Positions 1-39,751 of a stretch of DNA of 39,751 nt are shown here, one piece after another. The notes under the pieces are model-generated. The model saw only the letters and a list, made by a program, of their open reading frames with translations, made no database searches and was not told where the DNA came from. Source of the DNA: Pseudovirgaria hyperparasitica (taxonomy: Eukaryota); NCBI GenBank assembly GCA_010093815.1, contig ML996605.1; one strand, given 5' to 3'. Each line of letters begins with the position of its first letter. Within the stretch, counting starts at the first letter, position 1. The translations under genes were made by a program, and so were the position numbers.

Positions 1-3000
1 ATAATAGGTACCCTATTAACTAAGAAGTACCCGGTAAGAGATAGATTAATATAAAAATAGTCCTTAATCGAAGAACTAAACCCTTTCTTCTATATACTTA
101 ATAATAGATCTAAGGTCTAAGGAGGTATAGGGCTAAGGCCTAAGAAGGTATAGGGCTAAATTAAAGTAGATACACGGATAGTAAGTCTAGTAGAATTTCG
201 CTAGACTTACTATACGAATATATATATTAAGTCTAAGTAGCCTAGCTTATAGAGAGTACTATATACGGCGGCGATAGAGGCTACTACCGTCCTATAATAA
301 TAATTATTACTACTAGAGTAATAATAGATACTACTATATTAGGAAGCTATTCTTAGATAGATAGCTATCTACCTAGTACTAGGGGGATATAGATATAAAA
401 GGAGCTACTAACGTAGGAATTAAACTATCTTCTATAAATAACCTATAATAGATTTAATAGATAGATCCTTTTAATAGAAGGTATACGCGCTATAATCTAA
501 TAGTAGATATTAAGTCTAGTCGCTAAGGCCTATATTAAAGGGCGTTATATACGATAATAAGTATTACTATAAGCTAATAGTAATTACTACTATAATAACT
601 AGGCATAGAAGAGTAGCTTTATTAAGGGTTTTCTAGAAAGCTAGTAGGAATAAGCCGGATAATACTTACTTATAAGTGGTCCACGGCTAGGGCGGGCTTT
701 AGTAATAAATAAGCGGAGGGAGAGAGTAATATTAAGGGTAGACCCTAGGTATACTTAATGCTAGCGTACTACGCCTAACGCTACTACTCTCTCCTTACTT
801 AATAAAGCTAAATAAGCCTCTTTTTAATAGTATACTCTATCCCTTATCTTAAGGAAGCCGAGTAGACTCCGGCTTCCTCCCTTATTAAACTTACTATATT
901 CTATAAATACTCTTACGTCTATGTATACGTCGTATTCCTATAATACTACCCTAGTAAGATATAGACGGACTCTAATTATAAATATATAGAGACTATAATA
1001 GATATATCTATATCTAATAAATAATAGAGAAGATAACTATAGAAAGATACTAACTAGGAGAAGTATAGGGAGGACCTAGAATTAGTAATTCTAGATCTCT
1101 CTATAGTTAATATATCTAATAGTCTAGCTATAGATAGAGCTATATAAGTCCTTCTTTAAGCCTTCTAAAACTTAAGAGATAAATACGTACTATACTAAAT
1201 ATATAAGCCTCTAGATATAAGAGATATACCTTAAATATATAAAAGTAGAAGGAAAGCCTAGAGACTATATACACGTGTATACTATATCTAGATAACTAAG
1301 GTATAGAAGAAATAGAAAGAGATAATCCGATCTCGTAATAGAACCCTCTATAATAAATAATATAAATAATAGTATATAATTACTAATAAATATATATAAT
1401 AGGCTATAGGGCTATAGTATATAGTAAAGTAGGCTAAGAGCGTGGATATACCGACGCTACTACTACTAATACCTTCTCTAATATACTAGAGGAGAATATA
1501 TACTATAAGCCCTAAAAAAATAGAAATTCTCTAAGAAGTTATATTTCTCCCTCTAGAGCTAGTAGACCTATTAGATATTAATAATAATATATATCTAGAC
1601 GCGGTTAATATCTCTATAGAGATTATAGAAGAGAATATACTTAATACTATTAAAGTACTCCTAAATAATAAAGTATCTAGACTAGATAGAATACTAAATA
1701 GATACCTTAAATATACTATATAGATAACCTTACTACTTATTAGTCTTATCTTCTAGATATATACTAAGAACGGGTACTACCCCTAAAGCTTCTAGACTAT
1801 CTATACTATTATACTTCTAAAGCTAGGGAAGAACTCTAACTCCCTAAAAGGATAGAGACTAATTACTCTTCTCTTCTATCTTAGTAAGATACTTAAGACT
1901 ATAATTATAAAGAAGATAAATACTATAATATAAGAATATAATCTCCTTCTAGCGAACTAGAAGGCGAAGATTAGAAGCTCCCTAATTACTACTATCTAAT
2001 ATATTCTTAAAGTTATCTAGACTATATAGAAGTAGGGACGCGTAGTAATATTACTCTCTCTTAATATAGCTAGTATATTTAATAAGATAAACTATATAAG
2101 ACTTATCTATAACCTACGGAAGAGATATATATCTAAATAGATTATAAAGTTTATATAGTCCTTTCTCGCTAAAAGAATTACCTAGATATATATCTCTAGA
2201 TATTAAAGTAAGTATAGAAAGATAATATATAGTATTCTATAAGGAAGTACTATCTCTCTAATTCTCTTTCTCTTCTTTACTATAGACCTTCTATAGAGGA
2301 TATAATATATAGAGATAGTAGAATACGCTAATAATATATACCTTCTAGCTATTAATAATAATACTAGTTTAATATATAAATATATTAAATAAGACTATAA
2401 GAGATATATCTAGTAGATAAAGTACTATAGAGTAAAGTTTACTCTAGAGAAATACTAACTTATATACTTTATTAACTACTATAGAAGATAGACTACTAAA
2501 GAGGGAGAGTAATATTCTAGAATAGATACTTTTACTAAACTACTAATATAGAGTATATATATACTTAGTATTATAATTAATAATAAACTTAAATAGGGTC
2601 TATAGATTATATATATAGTATCTAGGGCCCTTAAGATAGAAGCTACTATATACTAGATTACGGCCTCTATATAGAGAACTATCTAGAATAAGGCGCGCTA
2701 GCTATACGTCTCTATAATACGACCCGCCTTTATATATAGATATAAGTACTAGTATATAGCCCTTATATAGACTAGATAAATAAAGCTTAAGTCTATATAG
2801 AACTATATACTCTATCTTATATCTAGTATATATAAAGCTACTAATATAGTACTACTGTAATATAAGATAAATATAATAAGTATATAGAACTTCTACTAGA
2901 TATAGAGGGTAATATACTTTACTAAATAATAAGTATAGAAATATATAGGACACGCTGAATATACCTTTACTATACTATATATATAAGTTAGTACCTACTA

Positions 3001-3898
3001 TTAAGTACTACTATATATAGACTAGACTTAACTATAGTATAAGAGTCTAATAGAGATAGACTTAAACTAAATTATATAAGAGATTAGAGATAACCTAGAT
3101 ATCTTTCTAGACTATTAGAACCCTTAGAAGCTTATATAGACTATATAGTTATAGACCTAGAATAAATAGAAAGAAGTTCTCTAGATCTATTAGATATCTA
3201 GAATAGATTTAGAGACTATAGAAGAAACTAAGTAGATAGATATATAAAGGGCTTATAAAAGCCTAAGTATCTATCCTCCTCTAAGCCTAAATAGAAGCTA
3301 TAGAACTTCTATACTATCTATATTAGAGGGGCGTTCTAGATATATCTCTATAGTATAAAGTATATAGCTAAAGAGATATAATATAGTATTATCTTATAAT
3401 ATATCCGGACCTCTATATATAGAGATAATTACTTATCTATATAATAAGGACCTCTAATATTATATAGTAGCTTAATAAGTACTCTAAGAATATTACCCGG
3501 TAGATACTTATATATCTCTCTCTTCCTTAATACTAATAGACCTAGATATATATACTAGAAGTAACTAGATATATACTAGATAGACCCTAGTATATACCGG
3601 AAGAACCCCGGGAGAACCCTAATTATTAGTTAAAGATAACCCTTAACTAATAACCCCTATACTCTATACATGCTACCTAAGGATAAAATAATAGTACTAT
3701 AGATTATAGGCCTATAGATATTTCTAATAGCTATATACTTAAGATAATATAAAGGTTTAATAAGATATAGTTATAGAGAGAAGGGAGTTTTTCCTTTTAT
3801 AAAGGTTTCTTCTTATATAATAGCTTAGACTAGAGAAGGTATATATCTATAGAGTAAACTACTCTACCTAGTTATATAATAATATTATTATTATTATA
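1..3898 (+). mobile_element. RIP-degraded non-LTR retrotransposon (LINE, Tad1-like); 5' end probably outside the window
   Basis: Very AT/TpA-rich with no long ORFs. Reversing CA>TA and TG>TA recovers RT motifs on +: ~1670 KAPGPDGIPN, ~2045-2125 LLSLDIAGAFDKVNH..L.HNLRKR, ~2230-2290 GIPQGS.ISPILFLFF..DL, ~2323 YADD (tacgctaataat). Ends in an (ATT)n tail at ~3880-3898. Confidence 0.85.
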
Positions 3899-23341: not shown

Positions 23342-23649
23342 AAGAGACAGAAGGGTATGAGCACGAGTATGAATGAGTTGTCCAACAGCAAGGGTCAGTC
23401 AATGCATGGGGACAGGTCGAACAATAAAGGTACAACATCACACATAGACGAGCTAGCAGATTGAGAAAGTGTAAACGAGTTGGGTTATTCTGATACAGAA
23501 GGTCCCAGTCGTGGGAACGAATGTGGTATGCGTGAAGTCGTCCGTAGTCTGTGATTACCGGGACAGAGACTCTACTTGAATTTGGAAGGGAGGCCCATAT
23601 TCTTACAGCATGGTCATAGAGCTAATTAACTATCACTCCAACGTATCTA

Positions 23650-23925
23650 AAATATTTTCACTAAGAGAATGTAAAGTCGTAATAAATATACTAACATACT
23701 ATACTTCTACTAAGTAGATCTATAAAAACTTATTAATTAGAAACTTAAGATACTATTGAATAGATAAATATAGCTAAAGTATTTGAATATAATATTAATT
23801 CTATAGGAATATATATAGTTAAGAAGATATTCAGGATATATATTATTATATATTAGTTATACTATCTCTTAAATACTATATAAGCGTAGTATAGTAGTAG
23901 TATATAAGAATATTAATTATACTTG
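23650..23925. repeat. Small RIP-mutated AT-rich repeat relic
   Basis: Abrupt AT/TpA-rich patch, depleted in CpA/TpG, inside GC-balanced DNA. Confidence 0.6.
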
Positions 23926-24066
23926 ATCGTGTGTGTTGGTGACATGGGCGAACATCCATCGGACGCCAAGCTTTCCCATGTAATATCTGGGAGAGGAGCA
24001 AACTGTAATAATGAGGAATATTGCCATCTATCCTAGAGCTTTTTAACGACCACATTATCCTGCGAA

Positions 24067-28715: not shown

Positions 28716-29620
28716 TCGTAATCGCCTGATAGGTAGAAAACCACTGGAGGAATACTACATCATAAAGTATCATCTTGGGGCGGTTTCAATGTATCGTACT
28801 ACACTTTAAGATGTCCGAGAGCTTGCCTTTACTGAAGCCAAGCTTACCGTCGAGTTTGGTCTTTGGCGGTGGATTACGATCGCAAACCGGAGTTTGGCAC
28901 CAGAGCGCTATAGTATACTGTATTGTACCTTACAGAAACATGAAAATGTGGAAAACCCCGCTTTGACGATTCATGAACCTCATACTTGAATAGCATAAGA
29001 CGAGCGATTGACTGTGTTATTAGAGCGGTTTGCAGCAAGGTCTTGTTTCATCCTTAAATCACCATGGCAGGTGCCAATGTACATGGATGCGATCTATTTA
29101 AAGATCCAGTACGTAACAAATAGATTACAAGCTTCAACATTATCGGCCCGAGAGGAGCACACACTCTGGGGTTAACAAGGAACAAATGTACCCCACAGCC
29201 AGGAACCCAGCTGCCACCCAGACTGTCTGGAGATAGCCCCATAAATATATAATGTTCCACTGGAGAAGGATTCCCCCGCAGATCATCGGGATACTGTCCA
29301 TGTGATAATATTCCCGCATCACGGTTGCCATTACAGTCAAAGCTCGAGCATGGTACTACTCGCATGAGGTTTGTATTGTCATCAAAGGAAATGACCTCAA
29401 TAGCAAGAGCCTCTGTGTCGTGCAAGATCGACTCTAGTGGTTCGTAGGGAGCGTAATCATGTCTTTATGTAAGGGAAACAAGGTACTGTGTCTCGAGTTA
29501 TAAAAGCACATCATAGCCCTACAGACTATGGAGCATATTATCAGCCACTTCATTATCGCACTGCAAATCTACTTAACGTACTTCTTCTATGTGCTTTGCT
29601 CGTTCAGGGACGATCTTACG

Positions 29621-30808
29621 ATGTCATTGGTTGTCTCGCTGGGACTGATCGCCAGTTCAATAGGAATACCTGCTGGTGGAATCGGTCTCGTGAGTGGTAT
29701 TCTCGGGATAGTGAATTTCGTACTCTCTCACGAGCCCACGAGACAAGCGTTAGGGCCGGCTATTCGCATCAAGGTTGGTAGTGAGCCACCAGATGGCGAA
29801 GCATTTGCAGGGTATGCGAATGAGAGTTCATTTACTGATTGACATTTACACTAAAATCTTTGAAGAGATATCGAGCACGTCTGGACGTATAATACTCGAA
29901 ACCAAGTGCTAGGCGGTGCTAAGGGAAGAGGTACGATTGGATCCGGGGACGTGTGGGATGTCACCGTCCCCTCACCTGGCGGTGGTGAGACTTGCAACTA
30001 CGTCAACATAGCTGCAAAGAACAATGCGATCTGCATAGCCTGGGTCGGAGTCAAGCAAAGTGACGGTTCTGACCTGGACGGTTCCTGGAACGGAGACATA
30101 GGGGCTGCGTGTGGTCAGAACTGGTATCATCAACAAGAGCCTGCCGGCCGCTGCCCGGATAATGTAACAAGTACCAACAGTTCATGCGTGGACGGTCTAT
30201 GGGTCCCCAGATGTACCTGGATAGACGGTGATGGTACTAATGGTATCATATCCAAGTCGCTTAAGTTTAACGTGTTTTCCTACTCCAACAAATCAGTCCC
30301 CTCAACACTCCAACAGGGTATGGCCTGCAGTTCCACAATCTTCTCCGGGGAATCGCAGATTTTTGGTAAGTATTGTAAGCGTTATCATTACGTTCATACT
30401 AATCGTTCGACCATAGACAGACCAGCTGGCCCAACTGTTAAGTATACCTATCTTAGCTCTAAAAGAGCCATCGAAGTATCTCAAACGCCGCGTGGGCTTC
30501 CAGTTCGTAAAAGATGGATGGAGGAACGACTTGTTGTATCCGATATGAAAGCCCATAATGCTACGAGCCTATGTAACTCTCCAACCTCTTGGGGACCAGA
30601 CTTCTGCGATTCCGAAACTTGCTGCGATATGGCCCACCACAAAGCTCATCCAAGATGCGACAAAAATCCAGTCTCGGGGTGTATGGTCGTCCACGATGAT
30701 GGAGAGTCTATAGCACTTAGAAAGCGGACTATGGTTGCCAAGCGAGATGTTCTCCTACCGTATAGAACGTATAAACATATTAAAAGATGGAGTTTAAGTA
30801 ATAGTTAG
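29621..30808 (+). CDS. Cys-rich, putatively secreted protein of an uncharacterised ascomycete family; introns 29812-29865 and 30366-30416
   Basis: Hydrophobic N-terminus; NAICIAWV, W.GDIG..CGQ.WY, P.CTWIDGD, LVVSD...H.A..LC.SPTSWGPDF and CDM motifs, recalled from conserved fungal hypothetical proteins. Canonical splice signals. Confidence 0.75.
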
Positions 30809-31098: not shown

Positions 31099-31924
31099 AT
31101 ATATATTATTAAAATTATAGTTTAGCTAAATAATAAGATATACTAGAATTTAAGTATTAATTATAATATAAAATGTAGTTAGAGCTATCTATAGCTCTAC
31201 TATTATATAAATAGAGTAAATAGATAGTAGTATAGCTAGATAGAATAATATAATATATTTAGTTATAGAATAAATTACTACTAAACTCTATTAGTAGTAA
31301 TTAAAGAGTATATATATATATATAAAGAGATACTAATCTATCTAGTATATAATAGTTTACTATCTATTATATTATCTCTAACTAAGTTAGCTAAGATATA
31401 TATAGATCTAGTTTTATCTTTAGCTAAGTTCTAATACTTCTCTAGTATTTAAGTATAACCTAGAATTATACTAATTTTAGAATAGAATATAGAATCTAGA
31501 TAAATATAATAGTAATAAGATTAGTACTAAGAATACTTATAATAGTAATAGTAATAGTAATATTAATAATAATATTATAATTACTAGTAGTAAAAAAATA
31601 TATAAGTAGATAGACTTAATATCTAATACTATAGATAATTATAGTATAGATAAATTAAGAAGTTATAATATATTAAGAAAGTAAATAAATAAAGATAATA
31701 AAGATAAATAAAGATAATAAAGATAAATAAAGATAAGTAAGTATAGTATATACTTAGTAAGTCTTAGATATCTCTTAATCTAAACGCTCTATATAAAATT
31801 ATATAGAGTATCTAGATCTACTAATCTACTTAGTCTATATATTATATTCTATATATAGATATTATATTTTATATATATATTATATACTATATATACTTAT
31901 ATACTAGATACTTAAGAAACCCTC
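31099..31924. mobile_element. RIP-degraded repeat ending in a CTAGATACTTAAGAAACCCTC terminus
   Basis: Extremely AT/TpA-rich. 31904-31924 is the RIPped form of the inverted-repeat motif at 32274-32294. Confidence 0.5.
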
Positions 31925-31942
31925 TAAAAATCTCTATATAAT

Positions 31943-32294
31943 AAGGGTTTCTTAAGTATCTAGTATATTTTAGTATTCTAAACATTCTAAATAGAGACTT
32001 ACTAAGTAATTATATAGTTAATAGTTTAGATAAAGTAATATCTAGTACTCTTCTATCTATCTCTTCTCTCTCTTTAAAATAATACTAATTATATATATTT
32101 CTAATTGATTTTAACCTTATAGACTTTAAGATAATACTTATATACGTGTTTTTAACTATTTTTAACCTTATAGACTACGGATATATATGTACTTTAAGTT
32201 CATTCTATATTACTTAGTAAGACGGCTTAGATATATAGTATAATAGCCGACTCGTATAGTATATATAATACAGCTGGACGCTTGAGAAACCCTC
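31943..32294. mobile_element. MITE-like non-autonomous element with ~21-bp terminal inverted repeats
   Basis: Left end AAGGGTTTCTTAAGTATCTAG (RIPped) and right end CTGGACGCTTGAGAAACCCTC are reverse complements after de-RIP. The first ~230 bp match the sequence starting at 34791. Confidence 0.65.
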
Positions 32295-32940
32295 GATTTT
32301 CGTTGCATGAACCACTCGGTTGCATACTGCACCACCTTCTACCCGTTCACAGCTACGATACTCGTTGACGGCCACTAGGCGCCTTCGATCAATCTATGCA
32401 CCTCCGCGTTTCTCTCTGTGGTCGATTGTACTTCTGTTTTAAATAACCCAACTTAATCGCCCGGTATTTTCCTGCTTCCTTTCATTCATCCGAGTACCTT
32501 GCAGCGACTTTTGTGGGGTGTCGTGTCCGAGCACGCGCTGTGGCACAGCAAACTTAGGTCCCTTGTCTTGGGTTTTTGTAACTCCATTGGTTGTGCAAGC
32601 AATACAAGGCACGAGTTTGGAGTATTGCGGCCTCTTAAGAACAAGCATTTTGAATCGCGCGCTGTTGTGGCTATTCTCTAGTAAATTTGAGGCCAACGAA
32701 TCCTTGTTGGGCGAAGGAGCCATTCTGCTACGCAGCTAAATTTAGAAGAAAGATTAAAATAGAGAGACTTTGTGACGACGAGAGGGACGTATAAAGGTTA
32801 CAGGTATGTATGGATCAACTACATTCTCATCAGCACTCCTCTCGACTCATATCTACATCTATCCTAATCTGTCTTTCTAATTCAGTCCACGCCCAGTATT
32901 TTAGTTCGTCTTTTCGCGACCCAAGGTACATTTTACCAAC

Positions 32941-33477
32941 ATGTCTCGCACCGTTCACCTTATTGTATATAACTCTCCGCTTTTCCCCGCCCACTGGGGT
33001 CTATGGGTCCCGCAAAAGGACGGCGACCAAAACATTGGAAAGCTCATTCACGCCACGGGAGACGCAAGGAATGGTTTCGAGGTTGCCTTTAAACGGAACT
33101 ATGACCTTGGTGCTACCAGTCGTAGTTATCAGCTCCTACCCTTGGCCCAAGTTGCTGATCAGCATGTGGTTGATGTCAAGGGAGATGGAAGGACAGGCAC
33201 GGATACGACAGTCCATGACTATCTCGAGCAAGTTGCGCTTAGCATTCCCGCACCAGGTCGAAGCCTGCGATCGGCCACCAGTCAGGTTCGTTGCTCATCG
33301 TATTGTAAAATCCTGCTCATTGACATATACTGATTTCCATAACAACAGGGATCAAGACAGAGGGTCGATATTCAAAACTGTCAGACATGGCTCCGAGTTG
33401 TGGTGACTGCACTCGTACAGAATGGGGTCATGGCCGAAAGAGCTCTTCAGGTGGTCGACAATGCTCCCCGAAACTAA
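32941..33477 (+). CDS. DUF6540-like small fungal protein (His...Cys, possible permuted papain-like fold); intron 33286-33348
   Basis: PAHWGLWVP, IHATGD..NGF and spliced C-terminus VDIQNCQTWL. The phase-0 GT..CTGAT..CAG intron gives an ORF ending TAA at 33477. Family assignment is from motif recall. Confidence 0.75.
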
Positions 33478-33635
33478 GGGGGGCCTGAAACTAATTGGGG
33501 CTATATGTTGTGATAACTGAGAGATCTTGTACCAATTTGCGCTGTATATTTTGTATACAGTCTCATGACTTTAACTCTAAACATCCTTCGAAATCAATTT
33601 TGTCTTCTAGACTACCGGAAATCCTAGGAGACCTC

Positions 33636-34628
33636 TTAGACCCCACGAGCTAGAACGAAATAGTCCCAATAGTCATAGAATTCTCGACGGTCCAGTACTA
33701 GAGGCAAATATTTCGATTCCCATTCTTCTCCAATCCGCGAGGTCCAACGAGCTTTGCAATACTCCCAATAATCCGGATACCATCCAGATTGATGCCAATC
33801 GATGATTGCAATGATCCGAGGATTGGGACCAGAGGACAGAATGATGTTACTTCGGTGTAAATCAGCATGCGTGAAAACGATGGGAACATTGTCGGAGAGA
33901 AAGGAGCGATATGGATGTGGGGATGCATCTTGGACATCCTGGGTTGGACCATATGCGGTCGTGAACCAGTCGTGGAAGATAGAGACGCTCTCGAATGGGC
34001 CTGCAGTTGGAGAGTTGCTATTTGTAAAAATGATGTCTAACAGCGGTTGCTTGCCAACATGACCTGCTCGGAGAATTAGACAAACGCTGTACAAAATTCT
34101 GATGGTAGACTAGAGTGATCAAAGCTTTCAGATTACCCCGACGAAGTTGAACTTACCAATGAATGAAGAGTCCTGCTTAACACGGCGCAATGCATGGACC
34201 ATGTCATGCAATTGCTGACAAACGGACGTCTTTTCTCCTTCAATCATAGTGTCCCAGCTCTTTTCTAACGTCGTGCCGTCTACCAGCTCCATATAAATGA
34301 ACACTTGATCGTCGTCCTTGCACCACCCATACACTTCCGGAACAGGTACGACGTCGGAAAGAGTGTTACGGATGAATAGGAGGCATTGCCCCTCAGCAAG
34401 TGCTACCTCCGTCCCGTATTTCACTAATAGTCCTAGATTGGGAAACGTTACCGGCGGAGGCCGAGTCACGAGCTTAGCTCTAGGGTTTTCTGAGCGACTC
34501 GCCACTTCTTTCACTTCTGTCGGCGTTGGAAGAGACAGCGGTGCGTTTGGTTTCTTGAAGAATGATGACTCGCGAAATACAACGTTCTCGTCAAATGGGA
34601 AGGGTTTACTCTGTATCTCCTCTTCCAT
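33636..34628 (-). CDS. Aminoglycoside-phosphotransferase (APH)/choline-kinase-like protein; intron 34064-34156
   Basis: LLVKYG, E..CL.FI, VPVPEVYGW, IYMELVDG, Brenner motif FTHADLHRSNII, IIDWHQSGWYP.YWEY. Confidence 0.92.
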
Positions 34629-34916
34629 GGTGAAAGAAGATACCTCCTCTTTAACTCGGGGCTGAGATTGGTGAAACTCAAACCAAGCTTCACTTGCTTT
34701 GGCTATCTTATCTAACCTTGACCGTAGTCACATAAAGACCAGCGACTGAGAAGGAGAGTCAAGCGTAGGGGTCGTGAGCGGAGTTTTACGGAGGGTTCCT
34801 CAAGCGTCCAGTGTATTTTAGTATTCTAAACGTTCGAAACAAAGATTTACTAAGTAATTATATAGTCATGAGTTTAGCCGAAGTAATCTCCGGTACCCTT
34901 CTATCCGCCTCTTATT

Positions 34917-34999
<83 letters not shown>

Positions 35000-35320
35000 T
35001 TCTCTCTCTCTCTCNNNNNNNNNNNNNNNNNNNNNNNNNNNNNNNNNNNNNNNNNNNNNNNNNNNNNNNNNNNNNNNNNNNNNNNNNNNNNNNNNNNNNN
35101 NNNNNNNNNNNNNNNNNNNNNNNNNNNNNNNNNNNNNNNNNNNNNNNNNNNNNNNNNNNNNNNNNNNNNNNNNNNNNNNNNNNNNNNNNNNNNNNNNNNN
35201 NNNNNNNNNNNNNNNNNNNNNNNNNNNNNNNNNNNNNNNNNNNNNNNNNNNNNNNNNNNNNNNNNNNNNNNNNNNNNNNNNNNNNNNNNNNNNNNNNNNN
35301 NNNNNNNNNNNNNNNNNNNN

Positions 35321-35367
<47 letters not shown>

Positions 35368-35394
35368 TTCTCTCTTTCTCTCTCTCTCTCTCTT
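34917..35394. repeat. (CT)n microsatellite containing an assembly gap (N at 35015-35320)
   Basis: Directly visible. Confidence 0.98.
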
Positions 35395-35407
35395 TATTAT
35401 ATATAAT

Positions 35408-35550
35408 TCTAACTAATTTTAACCTTATAGACTTTAAAACAATACTTATACACGTGTTTTTTACTAATTACACGTGTTTTTAACTATTTTTAACCTTATA
35501 GACTTCTAAATAATACTAATTATACGTGTTTTTAACTAATTTAAACCTTA
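35408..35550. repeat. ~50-bp imperfect tandem repeat (AACTA.TTTTAACCTTATAGACT...ACACGTGTTTTT)
   Basis: About three copies here and two at ~32100-32176. Confidence 0.8.
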
Positions 35551-35682
35551 TATAATAAACCTTTCTTATAAGGGTTATTAGAAAAGATATAGCGCTTCTA
35601 AGTACTCTCTAAGTATTCTTTTATTCTATTATATTTATTAGATAGATCTACTTACTATCTATTCTAATAGAATAGCTTTATA

Positions 35683-35856
35683 TAATTTATACTAAGTATT
35701 CTACTTATACTAAATATTCTATTTTTACTAAATATTCTATTTATACTAAACGTTCTATTTATACTAAATATACTAGTTATACTAAATATCCCGTTTATAC
35801 TAAACGTACTAGTTATACTAAATATTCTATTTATACTAAATATACTATTTATACTT
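35683..35856. repeat. 18-bp minisatellite (CTATTTATACTAAATATT), ~9 copies
   Basis: Directly visible 18-nt periodicity with RIP-type variation. Confidence 0.9.
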
Positions 35857-36350
35857 ATAGAATAATTAGTACTAGTTATTTTCTTAATACTAATTAGCTT
35901 ACTAGTACTACTTATTTACTATATACTAATAACTCTTATAGAATAAATAGTATCTAGTATTTTAGCTTCTCTATCTACTCTATCTACTCTATCTATATTA
36001 ATAGAAGTCTCTTTTCTAAAGTAATATCTTTATCTAAAGTATCTCTATAACTATATATATCTTATTATTCTAAATTATATCTTTAGTATATTTAATTATA
36101 GTCTTTAAATTTAATACTAGAAAGTTAATATATAATAGAGAGTAGAGGTTTAAAATTAATTAGACTAGGAACTTAAATTAAATAGTACTATTCTAAGCTC
36201 TCTATAACTATATAGCTATAATAAAATATAGTAGACCTTTCTTTCTTCTACCTTTAGATAATATTCTTTATATATTAAAAGATCATTAGAAAAGATACGG
36301 TGCTTCTAGTACTTCTAGGTCTTCCGGTACTTCTAAAGTTATCCTAAATA

Positions 36351-36470
36351 GATCCCGGTACTTCTAGAGTTATCCCATTCCTCCCGGAGTCGTCCCGGTA
36401 CTTCTTAAGTTATTCTAGTCCTTCTAGAGTTATCCTAGTTCTTCTAGAGCTATCCCGGTTCTTCTAGAAT
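36351..36470. repeat. 20-bp minisatellite (TATCCCGGTWCTTCTAGAGT), 6 copies
   Basis: Directly visible 20-nt periodicity. Confidence 0.88.
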
Positions 36471-36498
36471 CGTTCTATTAAACGTTAAGAAAACGTTT

Positions 36499-36720
36499 AA
36501 TCCTATTATATACTAGCGTATATTAGAATATCCCGTTATATACTAGTATATATAGTAACGTCCTACTATATACCGGTATATAATAGTAATACTACTTTAT
36601 ATTATAACTATATTTTAAGTATCTAGAAATATCCTATAATATACTAGCGTATATTAGAATATTCTATTATATACTAGTATATATAGTAATATCCTACTAT
36701 ATACCGGCATAGAATAAATA
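36499..36720. repeat. 30-bp unit x3, duplicated again ~131 bp downstream
   Basis: ATCCTATTATATACTAGCGTATATTAGAAT-type units at ~36500-36590 and ~36631-36720. Confidence 0.8.
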
Positions 36721-36899
36721 TCTTATTTCTCTTTACGTATAGATATATATAGATATATAATTATAAGTAAATAGCGGTTTATATTTATACTACTATACTA
36801 TCTAGTCTCTTAGAAGCTACTTAACTAACTACCTTACTTACTTCTATATCTCTATAGGATTACTAAAGTATATACCGAATACTAGTATATCGGGTATAG

Positions 36900-38400
36900 T
36901 TGTTGCTACTATAGATATATCTCCTTTTTCTAGGTCTAAGGCTTATTTCCTTATACTTTTAATTACCTAGCCTAATATAGTAAGTCTACTCTTAACCCCT
37001 AAATAGTCTAAAACTAAAGTATATATATATATACTATAGGCTAATATTATCTATAGCGATAATATCTTATACTTATCTACGGCTACGTCTCCTTATATAG
37101 ATATTAGTCTACTAATATAATATAACTAGCGACTATTAGGTCTTATCCCTTATAGACTTACGAAGCTAAGGCTAGTAAAATATATAGAGAATCTAACTTA
37201 TTTAATCTAAAATCTTAGTATACCTTATTTATACTAGATATACTTAGACCGGCTAGTAAATATACTAATATTTTTAATTTTACGTATAAACGTAGTACCT
37301 ATATATATATTAGTAAATTATATTACTAGTAAGTACTAATATAAATACTTACTATATATAGAAATATTATAGTTACTAGTATAGTAGATATAATTATAAT
37401 TTTCTCTAGTTAGTTAGCAAACGTTCGACGCGCGCGTTTAGTATTTTTATTATAAACCTTTTTATTAATAAGCTTATAGAGCTAGTTTACCTTTAAAGTA
37501 ACTTCTTTTAAAGCTAGTAAGATTATATTCTTTTGTATACTATTATCTAGCTAGGGGAGTAATTCGTGTATAGAATTAACGATTACCCTATCTAGTATAC
37601 TATTATTATCTATTAACGGACGTATAAGCCTAATTTTAATATATTCCTTACTTATCCTTTTATTAGTAAGGTATATAAGTAGTATATATATAGTAGCTAG
37701 CCTAGCCTTATAGTAGTACGTGTTATACCTAAGCCTATTTAATTTACCCTAGGCGATAGCTTATTTAAGGAGCCTTCGGTCTTTATTCTTATATAACTAT
37801 ATAATCTACTTCTCTATATCTATAGCGGTAATATATATAATATCTACTACTAGGGTTACTATTATAGATAGATAGTTCTTTCTATTAAACTACTTACTTA
37901 GTTATCCCCTTTATAGAATAAATAGTAAATACTAATTAGCTACTATATATAGTATACGCTTACTATCCGTGGTTCCTAATACTATACTAACTATACTAGC
38001 TATTATCTCTACCGGCTTATTTTTTATTTAAGAGAGGAGTTTATTTAACTATATTATAACTATCTTTCTTATAGATTCCTTCTATATACTCTTAAATACT
38101 AATTTAGTAGTATTATTATTAACGTAGTTAGATAACTAATCTAGGATACCCGTTTTAATAGCCGATAGAATATCTAATAGACTATTTAAGAGGGGCGTTA
38201 TACTAATCTATATACTAAATATAAAGGGATTAAGTCGCGTATACCTATACTATTTTATTATAGGTTTTTTTAAGATATAGAACTCGTCTACTATAAATAT
38301 ACTAATAAATACTATATTATAGGTTTAAATAATATTAGCGCTAAATTTTTTCACCTTCTTCTCTTTTAGAACTACGCGTCTAGCGAAGTTTATAATATAC
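36900..38400 (-). pseudogene. RIP-inactivated SNF2-family (SF2) helicase/ATPase gene
   Basis: A single minus frame at ~38294-38163 reads IVDEF(Y<H)ILKKP..K(*<Q)Y...(*<W)IS(I<A)TPLLNSLLDILS, matching SNF2 motifs II and III. Boundaries are approximate. Confidence 0.65.
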
Positions 38401-38427
38401 TAGGTCTCTATACTTTAGACGGTAGTA

Positions 38428-39751
38428 TAATAATAATAATAATAATAATATTATATAACTAGGTAGAGTAGTACTCTATAGGCCTATGCCTCCTCTAGTC
38501 TAAGCCACTATGTAAGAAGAAACCCTATAGGGAAAAACTTCCTTATGTCTATAACTACATCTCGTTAAACCTCTATTTCGTCTTAAGTATATAGCTATAG
38601 AGTACGCCTATTAGCCTATAGCCTATATTACCGTTATTTTACCCTTAGGTAGCACGTGTAGATGCGGAGGTTATTAGTTAAGGGCTGCCCCCGACTAATA
38701 ATCGGGGTTCTCCCGAGATTCTTCCGGTATATATCGGGTTACTACTGGCGTATACCGGGTCTCTTCCGGCATATATTTCCGGGTCCACTAGTACTAGAGG
38801 AGTGGTAGATATGTAAGTATCCATTAGGAGACGTCCTTAGGGTACTTATTAAGCTATCGTGCGATATCTAATTAGACGGTAGTATAGACTATATTATTCT
38901 TTACGTATTATAACGGGAATTTAATAGTAGCGGTCTTATTAACGCGAATTAACTACTTCTTAGTAATATACTCCTCGCTAGTCTCGTATTTTATAGGATT
39001 ACTAATATTATTATAATATTCCTATTCGGGGTTAGAGTACCTCTTAGCTAGATAGTATACGTCTATAGATAAGAGTTATTAGATATTAGGGGCGTTAAGA
39101 AGGGTTTTTAAGTACGCTAACCGTACTACTATCTTTATTAGATTCTATTTATCGATTTTATCGACGAATATACTATCTATATTATAGTATATCTAGTTAA
39201 AGTGCTATAGCTAATACGATACTAGGAGGTTCCTTAGATAGTATAGTATAAATAGTCCTTAGAGGCGGGGCATCTCGCTAAATTTATTAGTCTAGCTATA
39301 CGGATATTTAATCGGATATAGAGATTATATTAGGCACTTTCTATCTATACCTAGGTCTTAAGTCGGTAGTAGATACTTTTCTAGGTATAGTTCTATATTA
39401 TTACGTAGAAAGTCCTAATAGAATATAAGATAGATAAACGTTATAAGTATAATAGTCTTTCCTAGCCCTAGGCTATCTACTAAGATCTAGTAGTTCTATA
39501 GACCCGCCCGCTACTTAAATATAGTAACTACCGCGAGTAATTAGCCGGCCTATAGTCTATATAACCCACTTATACTAAAGGCTAGATATAGAATAGATAT
39601 ATAGCCGAAGTTCTTTATTAGATTATCTAGTATAAGCCTAAATATACTCATAGTTGTAAACTTAACCTCTACTATATCTAATAAGTTTATATAAGGTATT
39701 TCCTTATTAGGAATAGCTTAATATTAGTAATCGATATTACTAATATTATCT
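38428..39751 (-). mobile_element. 3' part of a second RIP-degraded LINE, related to the left element
   Basis: Reverse complement of 38428-38856 aligns by eye with 3468-3898, including CTACTCTACCTAGTTATATAAT and the (ATT)n tail. Confidence 0.85.

What the first reader, a model, noticed from the sequence alone, without database searches (positions are those of the whole stretch)
31899..34815. Two intact genes bracketed by inverted repeats, next to an 'empty' copy of the same inverted-repeat pair
Seen: CTGGACGCTTGAGAAACCCTC (32274-32294) and GAGGGTTCCTCAAGCGTCCAG (34791-34811) are a 20/21 inverted repeat, and they mark the edges of a 2.5-kb un-RIPped island carrying convergent DUF6540-like and APH-like genes. 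About 350 bp to the left, the RIPped form of the same pair makes a perfect 25-bp inverted repeat (31899-31923 / 31944-31968) around only 20 nt. Both right-hand arms are followed by the same ~230-bp sequence. Inference offers two readings. (a) The motifs are termini (GAGGG...CCCTC) of three clustered elements, making a composite-transposon-like arrangement that could move the gene pair. (b) They are an empty versus a filled site, i.e. cassette capture between inverted arms (outer ends TACA[G]CTGG...CCAGTGTA). Reading (a) is more parsimonious, but either would be an unusual way to mobilise fungal genes.
Basis: partly seen in the sequence, partly recalled or inferred. Interest (0 to 1): 0.8.

Follow-up and report, generated by a model that had tools for sequence, protein, structure and literature searches.

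The report
Horizontally acquired kinase-peptidase gene pair
The repeats are just the ends of ordinary transposons, but the two genes between them came recently from a distantly related fungus and belong to an apparently undescribed kinase-plus-peptidase gene pair that recurs about a dozen times in this genome and may act like a toxin with its antidote.

Summary
The repeats are real, but they are outward-facing termini of a Mutator-like (MULE) family. The 21-mer occurs 40 times in the genome, and 11 of 15 short copies examined have exact 8-9 bp target duplications. The 'empty site' is two RIP-saturated ends 18 bp apart, probably left by a local inversion. No composite or Pack-MULE hallmark was found.

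The cargo is what matters. The single-copy island is 90-92% identical in protein to Pleosporales genes (a control gene gives 54-56%). It is 91-95% identical in DNA, non-coding parts included, to contigs of four other runs that show no such ends at the right edge. This points to a recent transfer between fungal orders.

The pair is a recurring module. 12 of 13 DUF6540 loci in this genome lie within 2 kb of an APH-like kinase, in three orientations, and the partners co-diverge. The pair is also adjacent in other fungi. DUF6540 folds as a permuted papain-like peptidase. A predicted complex of a cognate pair passes (0.71 against a best control of 0.01), with the kinase tail lying in the peptidase cleft. 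A toxin-antidote role is inferred and untested.

The parts
31204..31442 (.). RIPed ~240-bp repeat (solo-LTR-like) that cuts off element A
   Evidence: many copies in the genome; it bounds nested retroelements in C4
31442..31924 (+). A: terminal remnant of the long (about 3.7 kb) MULE, RIP-saturated, end facing right
   Evidence: 74-90% to the C24, C4 and C28 copies
31925..31942 (.). 18-nt spacer; its first 8 nt are the RIP form of the reverse complement of 32295-32302 (inverted target duplication)
   Evidence: 8/8; background 1e-4 to 3e-4 per comparison
31943..32294 (+). B: complete 352-bp MULE-type MITE, subfamily 1, no direct target duplication
32295..34790 (.). Single-copy un-RIPed island; 32340 to 34786-34793 is colinear with contigs of other runs at 91.5-95.3%
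32941..33477 (+). DUF6540 gene (157 aa, one intron); permuted papain-like fold, His18 and Cys126
33636..34628 (-). APH-like kinase gene (299 aa, one intron), catalytic motifs intact, conserved Arg-Gly-x tail
34791..35552 (+). C: left part of a MULE-type MITE, subfamily 2, with CT microsatellite and assembly gap; right end missing
35576..39751 (.). Other high-copy RIPed repeats that interrupt C, up to the contig end

Best explanation
Three layers. (1) Shown: the repeats are termini of a MULE family (330-734-bp MITEs plus a RIP-killed element of about 3.7 kb). A, B and C are separate insertions at the edge of a repeat block. (2) Inferred: B was turned round by one reversed-ends transposition that used A's end and B's right end and landed 10 nt from B's other end. 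That one event explains why B has no direct duplication, why A and B are 18 bp apart, and why A's flank is the inverse of B's right flank. (3) Well supported: the island is a recent horizontal acquisition, most likely from a Pleosporineae fungus; the route is unknown, and the MULE ends now mark its edges. The two genes travelled together because they are one functional module. In it an APH-like kinase binds a permuted papain-like peptidase, with the kinase C-terminal tail in the peptidase cleft and the peptidase over the kinase substrate side (predicted). Most likely one partner neutralises the other, as in a toxin-antidote pair (inferred, about 0.4). DUF6540 is the better guess for the partner that needs restraining, since it is rarely alone in this genome.
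For: MULE: 11 of 15 short copies have exact 8-9 bp duplications, against 0 of 210 mismatched pairings. Two long copies share 8-bp duplications. Long-element TIR about 200 bp. MULE/ZSWIM RNaseH-like hits at E 7.9e-4 and 7.7e-5. Inversion: 8/8 match, background 1.2e-4 and 3.2e-4 with target preference. Transfer: kinase 274/299 identical to Plenodomus lingam and DUF6540 142/157 to Ophiobolus disseminans. Bystin from the same window gives 59% at best, and 54-56% to O. disseminans, P. biglobosus and P. nodorum. Acrospermales versus Pleosporales. The kinase sits in a 100/99 clade with Pleosporineae proteins. DNA identity 91.5-95.3% across introns and promoters in 4 of 4 runs laid. Module: 12 of 13 DUF6540 loci lie 127-1870 bp from an APH-like hit (7 convergent, 4 divergent, 1 tandem), binomial p below 1e-16 even on generous assumptions. 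A 13th pair has DUF6914. Mantel r 0.57, p 1e-4 over 12 pairs. Consecutive accessions in Lojkania and Dothidotthia. One annotation carries both domains. Complex of the Lojkania pair: score 0.71, best of 3 controls 0.01, runs agree in at least 75% of contacts, partner pLDDT at least 82. This mark was reached by 51 of 78 solved and 2 of 108 mismatched pairs; on eukaryotes by 39 of 65 and 2 of 126.
Against: The transposase hits are below Pfam cut-offs, and the genome search for PF10551 found nothing. The inversion rests on one 8-mer in RIPed DNA, found after looking at several pairings. A second 7/8 match (B left flank to C flank; background 0.006-0.02) is left unexplained. Nesting within the three close Pleosporineae rows is borderline (AU p 0.0515) and the DUF6540 tree is unresolved, so the direction is favoured, not proven. 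The four laid runs are coded, so their DNA identity cannot be tied to a named order. 9 of 13 metagenome DUF6540 loci show no APH neighbour (several look like the same lineages and some contigs are short), and 13 of 26 APH-like loci in this genome have no partner found. The catalytic Cys is replaced in at least 3 own-genome copies. The complex was folded for a relative (72-74% identical), not for the window's own pair, and 7 of 44 blind neighbours also pass. Fold Z-scores are only 4.6-6.6. No toxicity, expression or binding has been measured.
Confidence: 0.68

Rival explanations
1. The MULE ends moved or captured the pair: a composite or reversed-ends capture placed the foreign DNA between two element ends.
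For: Homology to other runs stops within 0-4 bp of C's terminus. The sequence that follows in those runs was not found in this genome. The only end in the genome whose flank matches C's flank with at most 1 mismatch is B's left end. A second pair (C9) also has a MULE end about 700 bp away.
Against: B and C are different subfamilies with different RIP loads (left ends 18/20 versus 4/20 sites). No outer end for C. Island single-copy. The two inner flanks match only 6/8. Relatives are colinear, not circularly permuted. The 11.7-kb and 91-kb TSD-flanked copies are RIP-marked throughout and largely accounted for by nested repeats, with no un-RIPed gene island. No terminal repeat is shared by all pair loci.
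Confidence: 0.13
2. Empty versus filled site: a cassette is captured between inward-facing arms.
For: Only the local look of the sequence.
Against: The motifs face outward in all 17 paired elements examined, 13 of them with exact duplications. The 'empty' arms belong to two different elements.
Confidence: 0.02
3. The pair is a non-selfish enzyme unit, such as a small-molecule or lipid kinase with an amidase or acyltransferase, or a kinase with its regulator. It is kept together by co-regulation and is useful in mycoparasitism.
For: Nearest folds include lipid-acting enzymes (CLN5, PLAAT4). PF01636 is reported as two-fold expanded in this species and in Ampelomyces (PMC7082219, passages). Both genes occur alone. 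Predicted binding fits a regulator as well.
Against: Orientation varies freely while linkage persists. Paired kinases are spread over deep branches. The predicted contact covers both active-site regions, which suits inhibition more than a pathway.
Confidence: 0.4
4. The island is contamination or a mis-assembly joined at repeats.
For: It lies between repeats near a gap at a contig end.
Against: Both junctions are to termini of a family resident on many host contigs.
Confidence: 0.04

Closest known systems
Mutator-like elements (MULEs) and their MITEs
   Same: 8-9 bp target duplications, TIR of about 200 bp on the long element, DDE/MULE domain remnant (criteria from PMC5499845, passages).
   Different: All transposase copies seen are RIP-damaged; the MITE TIR is only about 25-43 bp; the genes lie outside the elements, so this is not a Pack-MULE.
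IR-flanked SIX3/SIX5 and SIX12 mini-clusters and promoter mimps of Fusarium oxysporum
   Same: Small gene clusters flanked by inverted repeats, with MITEs just upstream of genes (PMC3599309, passages).
   Different: Here the ends face the genes and belong to separate elements; the cargo is cytoplasmic-looking and horizontally acquired.
ToxhAT/ToxA and Starship-borne transfers among Dothideomycetes (recalled, no call)
   Same: Recent transfer between plant-associated ascomycetes at high DNA identity.
   Different: No enclosing element with inward cargo was found; the vehicle is unknown; a Starship captain was not searched for.
Circularly permuted NlpC/P60 peptidases (DeSI/PPPDE, LRAT/PLAAT, YiiX)
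   Same: The seven best structural matches are, as I recall their classification, all of this group; His and Cys are conserved; DUF6540 is listed as papain-like in PMC10318531 (passage).
   Different: No substrate known; a fixed kinase partner is not mentioned in the passages seen.
Type II toxin-antitoxin, effector-immunity and fungal poison-antidote pairs (recalled, no call)
   Same: Two small linked genes, many divergent copies per genome, co-divergence, horizontal transfer as a unit, predicted direct binding over the active sites.
   Different: Different protein families; no operon (mostly convergent or divergent); toxicity and drive untested; orphans of both genes exist.

Membership tests
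MULE superfamily | 8-10 bp target site duplication | tested here: met
   11 of 15 short copies exact, plus both long copies; control 0 of 210
MULE superfamily | TIR longer than 100 bp on the autonomous-type element | tested here: met
   about 200 bp at 72-91% identity
MULE superfamily | MULE DDE transposase | tested here: inconclusive
   PF10551 E 7.9e-4 and PF21056 E 7.7e-5, below cut-offs, in RIP-damaged frames; none in the genome search
Composite transposon | Outer ends of two flanking elements share one target duplication | tested here: not met
   C has no outer end in the assembly; no direct duplication among the four window ends; contig end and gaps limit the test
Composite transposon | Flanking copies near-identical and cargo found at more than one site | tested here: not met
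   different subfamilies, 6 transversions in 130 nt; single copy
Pack-MULE | Cargo lies inside one element, between its two TIRs | tested here: not met
   both termini face the genes; the island is outside B and C
Empty/filled cassette site | Arms point inward and flank either nothing or a cassette | tested here: not met
   outward-facing in all 17 paired elements examined
Starship cargo | Tyrosine-recombinase captain at one end of a large element | not tested
Permuted NlpC/P60 (papain-like) peptidases | Permuted fold with His early and Cys at the start of the core helix | tested here: met
   pLDDT 85.8 model; best seven matches Z 4.6-6.6, rmsd 3.1-5.8, 90-131 aligned; H18 and C126 at least 90% conserved; Foldseek gave no E at or below 0.001
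APH/choline-kinase-like kinases | HxDxxxxN loop and metal-binding Asp motif | tested here: met
   both present in the window protein; the loop motif in 11 of 12 paired segments; PF01636 E 4e-14 for the 92% relative
APH/choline-kinase-like kinases | Phosphorylates aminoglycosides | not testable with these tools
   best solved APH(3') match is weak, E 0.002
Toxin-antitoxin / poison-antidote pair | Two genes tightly and repeatedly linked | tested here: met
   12 of 13 DUF6540 loci; 4 of 13 metagenome loci
Toxin-antitoxin / poison-antidote pair | Products bind directly | tested here: inconclusive
   prediction passes (0.71 vs best control 0.01; mark reached by 51 of 78 solved and 2 of 108 mismatched pairs); supports but does not show binding
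Toxin-antitoxin / poison-antidote pair | One product is toxic and the other rescues | not testable with these tools
   needs expression tests

The most novel reading that the evidence does not exclude
DUF6540/DUF6914 peptidases and their adjacent APH-like kinases form a widespread, undescribed toxin-antidote (or effector-immunity) system of filamentous fungi. The kinase plugs the peptidase active site with its C-terminal tail. Cognate pairs multiply, diverge and jump between fungal orders as units, and this accounts for part of the kinase expansion reported in mycoparasites.
Probability: 0.35. Interest if true: 0.88.

Novelty: new variant of a known kind. Interest (0 to 1): 0.7.

Why it matters
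The repeat arrangement itself is ordinary. The cargo gives three things. First, a clean case of recent gene transfer between fungal orders, involving a mycoparasite. Second, a partner and a testable mechanism for a family of unknown function. Third, a new reading of the fungal APH-like expansion, which has been ascribed to antibiotic detoxification: half of the APH-like loci in this genome sit beside a papain-like partner. Small protein toxin-antidote pairs are common in bacteria but few are known in filamentous fungi (my knowledge), and a two-plasmid yeast test can decide the matter.

Tried and rejected
Tc1/mariner or CACTA termini read from the inner side of the motif: rejected, because the duplications lie on the GAGGG/CCCTC side.

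The 91-kb TSD-flanked element on C4 as a giant gene carrier: it is RIP-marked throughout and largely a nest of repeats inside the 3.7-kb element.

Circular permutation of the island, suggested by the spacer matching both island ends: relatives are colinear and continue differently.

Donor right-flank motif in the own genome: 1 hit at 3 mismatches, none with a RIP-aware pattern.

TIR 21-mer in metagenome loci: 0 of 13 at up to 5 mismatches. Viral contigs: no relative. TIR-like 18/21 match beside the C16 pair: no element body behind it.

Transfer extending to the left neighbour gene: best representative 58% (representatives only, so weak). DUF6540 tree: unresolved. Foldseek PDB search: no significant match. 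The AU test against all ten Pleosporales rows (p 4e-47) is confounded by paralogues and was not relied on.

Literature: searches for DUF6540, PF20174/DUF6914/DUF7770, six accessions and term sets on the pair, transfer and rearrangement found no description of the pair or the transfer. Only open PMC and bioRxiv texts are held, and no supplements were read. Those of PMC7082219 and PMC10318531 may bear on this.
Full report
OBSERVATION. All described features are present: the 20/21 inverted pair, the 25/25 RIPed pair and the shared tail. The tail is about 240 bp in two pieces, split by a microsatellite and an assembly gap. Both genes are intact, with one intron each. The window is most of a 44.8-kb contig and reaches its end. 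A protein identical to the DUF6540 product is listed under Pseudovirgaria hyperparasitica on a contig of that length, order Acrospermales. The genus is described as a mycoparasite of rust sori (PMC3317363, start of abstract in a search listing).

THE REPEATS ARE MULE TERMINI. The 21-mer has 40 matches in the genome and the control has none; 30 of the 40 came with flanking DNA. They pair outward around 330-734-bp elements. 11 of 15 such elements have exact 8-9 bp duplications, one more has 8 of 9, three have none, and 0 of 210 mismatched pairings do. Two long copies (11.7 kb on C24, 91 kb on C4) also carry 8-bp duplications. They reduce to a core of about 3.7 kb plus nested RIPed repeats, with TIRs of about 200 bp and weak MULE/ZSWIM hits in frames read with X at stops. 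The genome search for PF10551 was empty. These features match the MULE criteria in PMC5499845 (passages); MULEs are ubiquitous in fungi (PMC5751038, passages).

THE THREE ELEMENTS IN THE WINDOW. A is the cut-off end of the long element, B a whole MITE, and C a MITE whose right part is replaced by other repeats. B and C fall in different subfamilies and differ in RIP load, 18/20 against 4/20 sites in the left 130 bp. The 'empty site' is therefore two unrelated ends whose RIP-able sites are all mutated.

A LOCAL INVERSION (inferred). B lacks a direct duplication, but the 8 nt after A are exactly the RIP form of the inverse of the 8 nt after B. The background is 1.2e-4 in RIPed DNA and 3.2e-4 under the family's target preference, per comparison; I looked at 12 pairings. 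A reversed-ends transposition of A's end and B's right end into a site 10 nt from B would give this. The mechanism is recalled from maize Ac/Ds and Tn10; a literature search found nothing. I put it at about 0.55. A second, 7/8 match between B's left flank and C's flank is the only such match in the genome (background 0.006-0.02) and stays unexplained. The circular-permutation model that would join both matches failed against relatives.

THE ISLAND IS FOREIGN. It is single-copy. The kinase is 274/299 identical to Plenodomus lingam and 255/297 to Parastagonospora nodorum; DUF6540 is 142/157 identical to Ophiobolus disseminans. P. lingam and O. disseminans are Pleosporales. Bystin from the same window reaches 59% at best among the 120 hits listed (8000 candidates scored), and 54-56% to those genera. 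The kinase sits in a 100/99 clade with these proteins. Strict nesting is borderline (AU p 0.0515), so the direction is favoured only. Of 23 runs listed, 19 other than the window's organism share words with the island. I laid 4 of them. All are colinear at 91.5-95.3% (gaps not counted), three from about 32340 and one from 33296, through introns and upstream DNA. All leave the window's sequence at 34786-34793, where C starts, and continue in a sequence they share. So the donor-type locus has no MULE end on that side, and C marks or made the right edge. The runs are coded, so their taxa are unknown. The left neighbour gene shows no close representative (58%).

THE PAIR IS A MODULE. Searching the genome with the kinase gave 30 matches at 26 loci (a lower bound), and with PF20174 15 matches at 13 loci. 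12 of the 13 lie 127-1870 bp from a kinase: 7 convergent, 4 divergent, 1 tandem; binomial p below 1e-16 even assuming 100 kinase loci and leaving out the window. Scanning 136 frames around the other 14 kinase loci found one more partner, DUF6914, so 13 of 26 are paired. Similarities of the partners correlate (Mantel r 0.57, p 1e-4, on segments of uneven length), and paired kinases lie on deep, scattered branches. The pair has consecutive accessions in Lojkania and Dothidotthia, is annotated as one protein in Dactylonectria, and is convergent in 4 of 13 metagenome loci. The other 9 show no kinase; two that I checked sit among housekeeping genes. No terminal repeat is shared by all pair loci, so the module is not one mobile element.

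MECHANISM. The DUF6540 model (pLDDT 85.8) matches CLN5, DeSI-1, TseH, a picornavirus 2A, a Bacillus peptidase, PLAAT4 and YiiX best (Z 4.6-6.6; middling scores, and their common classification is recalled). This agrees with its listing as papain-like in PMC10318531 (passage). The cognate Lojkania pair (72-74% identical to the window's) was folded as a complex. It scored 0.71 against a best control of 0.01, the runs agree in at least 75% of contacts, and the partner pLDDT is at least 82. The mark was reached by 51 of 78 solved and 2 of 108 mismatched pairs (eukaryotes 39 of 65 and 2 of 126; blind neighbours 7 of 44). Kinase residues 312-317 pack on His18 and the Gly-Asp motif, and DUF6540 touches residues of the kinase catalytic loop. 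The last five tail residues are identical in the window's kinase, and 21 of 56 homologues end in Arg-Gly-x (counted by eye). Interface residues are no more conserved than the rest (27/38 and 23/37 against 74% and 72%). The simplest reading is mutual occlusion, with one partner restraining the other. Which one is harmful is not settled: DUF6540 is rarely alone here, yet some copies lack the Cys. PMC7082219 (passages) reports the PF01636 expansion in this species and suggests antibiotic detoxification; 'horizontal' does not occur in its main text.

NOVELTY AND VERDICT. The repeat arrangement is a new member of a known kind and does not show a new way to move genes. The transfer and the recurring pair were not found in the searches listed under Tried and rejected (open PMC and bioRxiv only; supplements unread). 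The pair works like a toxin-antidote or enzyme-inhibitor system by anatomy; membership is unproven because toxicity cannot be tested here. Odds: MULE termini 0.95, recent transfer 0.88, functional binding pair 0.7, toxin-antidote 0.4, MULE-driven movement 0.13.

Noticed in passing
G000:C4:380073-471262: A MULE of about 3.7 kb with an intact 8-bp duplication, swollen to 91 kb by nested RIPed repeats; a similar 11.7-kb case lies at C24:37923-49617.
   Followed up: yes
G000:C13:683039-683548 and C1:2228069 onward: A different ~510-bp MITE family sits just upstream of the kinase in two other pairs. With C in the window and a MULE end at C9:8425-8445, small DNA transposons lie upstream of the kinase in at least 4 of 13 pairs, recalling mimps at SIX promoters.
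   Followed up: partly
window 31935-31942 versus 34783-34790: 7/8 RIP-compatible inverted match between B's left flank and C's flank, the only such match among ends in the genome; unexplained.
   Followed up: partly
proteins P0030/P0095/P0096 versus P0042 cluster: The P. nodorum kinase closest to the window's is on 71 contigs summed over NCBI members, against 154 for its paralogue; it may be present in only some isolates.
   Followed up: no
G000:C6:844887-847305: A divergent pair in the same kinase clade as the window's, with stops inside the matches (intron or decay); possibly the older resident copy.
   Followed up: partly
window 29528-30808: Gene for a cysteine-rich protein with no Pfam match in the two pieces scanned; it ends at the RIP block, has 174 relatives among representatives, best 58%.
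   Followed up: partly
window 939-3897 and 38406-38871: Pieces of one RIPed repeat family, in opposite orientation, at both ends of the gene block; the family is also nested in the C4 element.
   Followed up: partly
L050:1390-5592: Several inverted repeats of 130-155 bp upstream of a metagenome copy of the pair.
   Followed up: no
taxonomy: Sphaerellopsis filum (Leptosphaeriaceae) and Ampelomyces quisqualis (Phaeosphaeriaceae) belong to the families of the closest hits; that Sphaerellopsis lives on rust pustules is recalled. A shared niche would be a plausible route of transfer.
   Followed up: no
window 23501-24000: Isolated AT-rich dip (GC 0.32) inside the gene block, with a mild RIP signal.
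   Followed up: no
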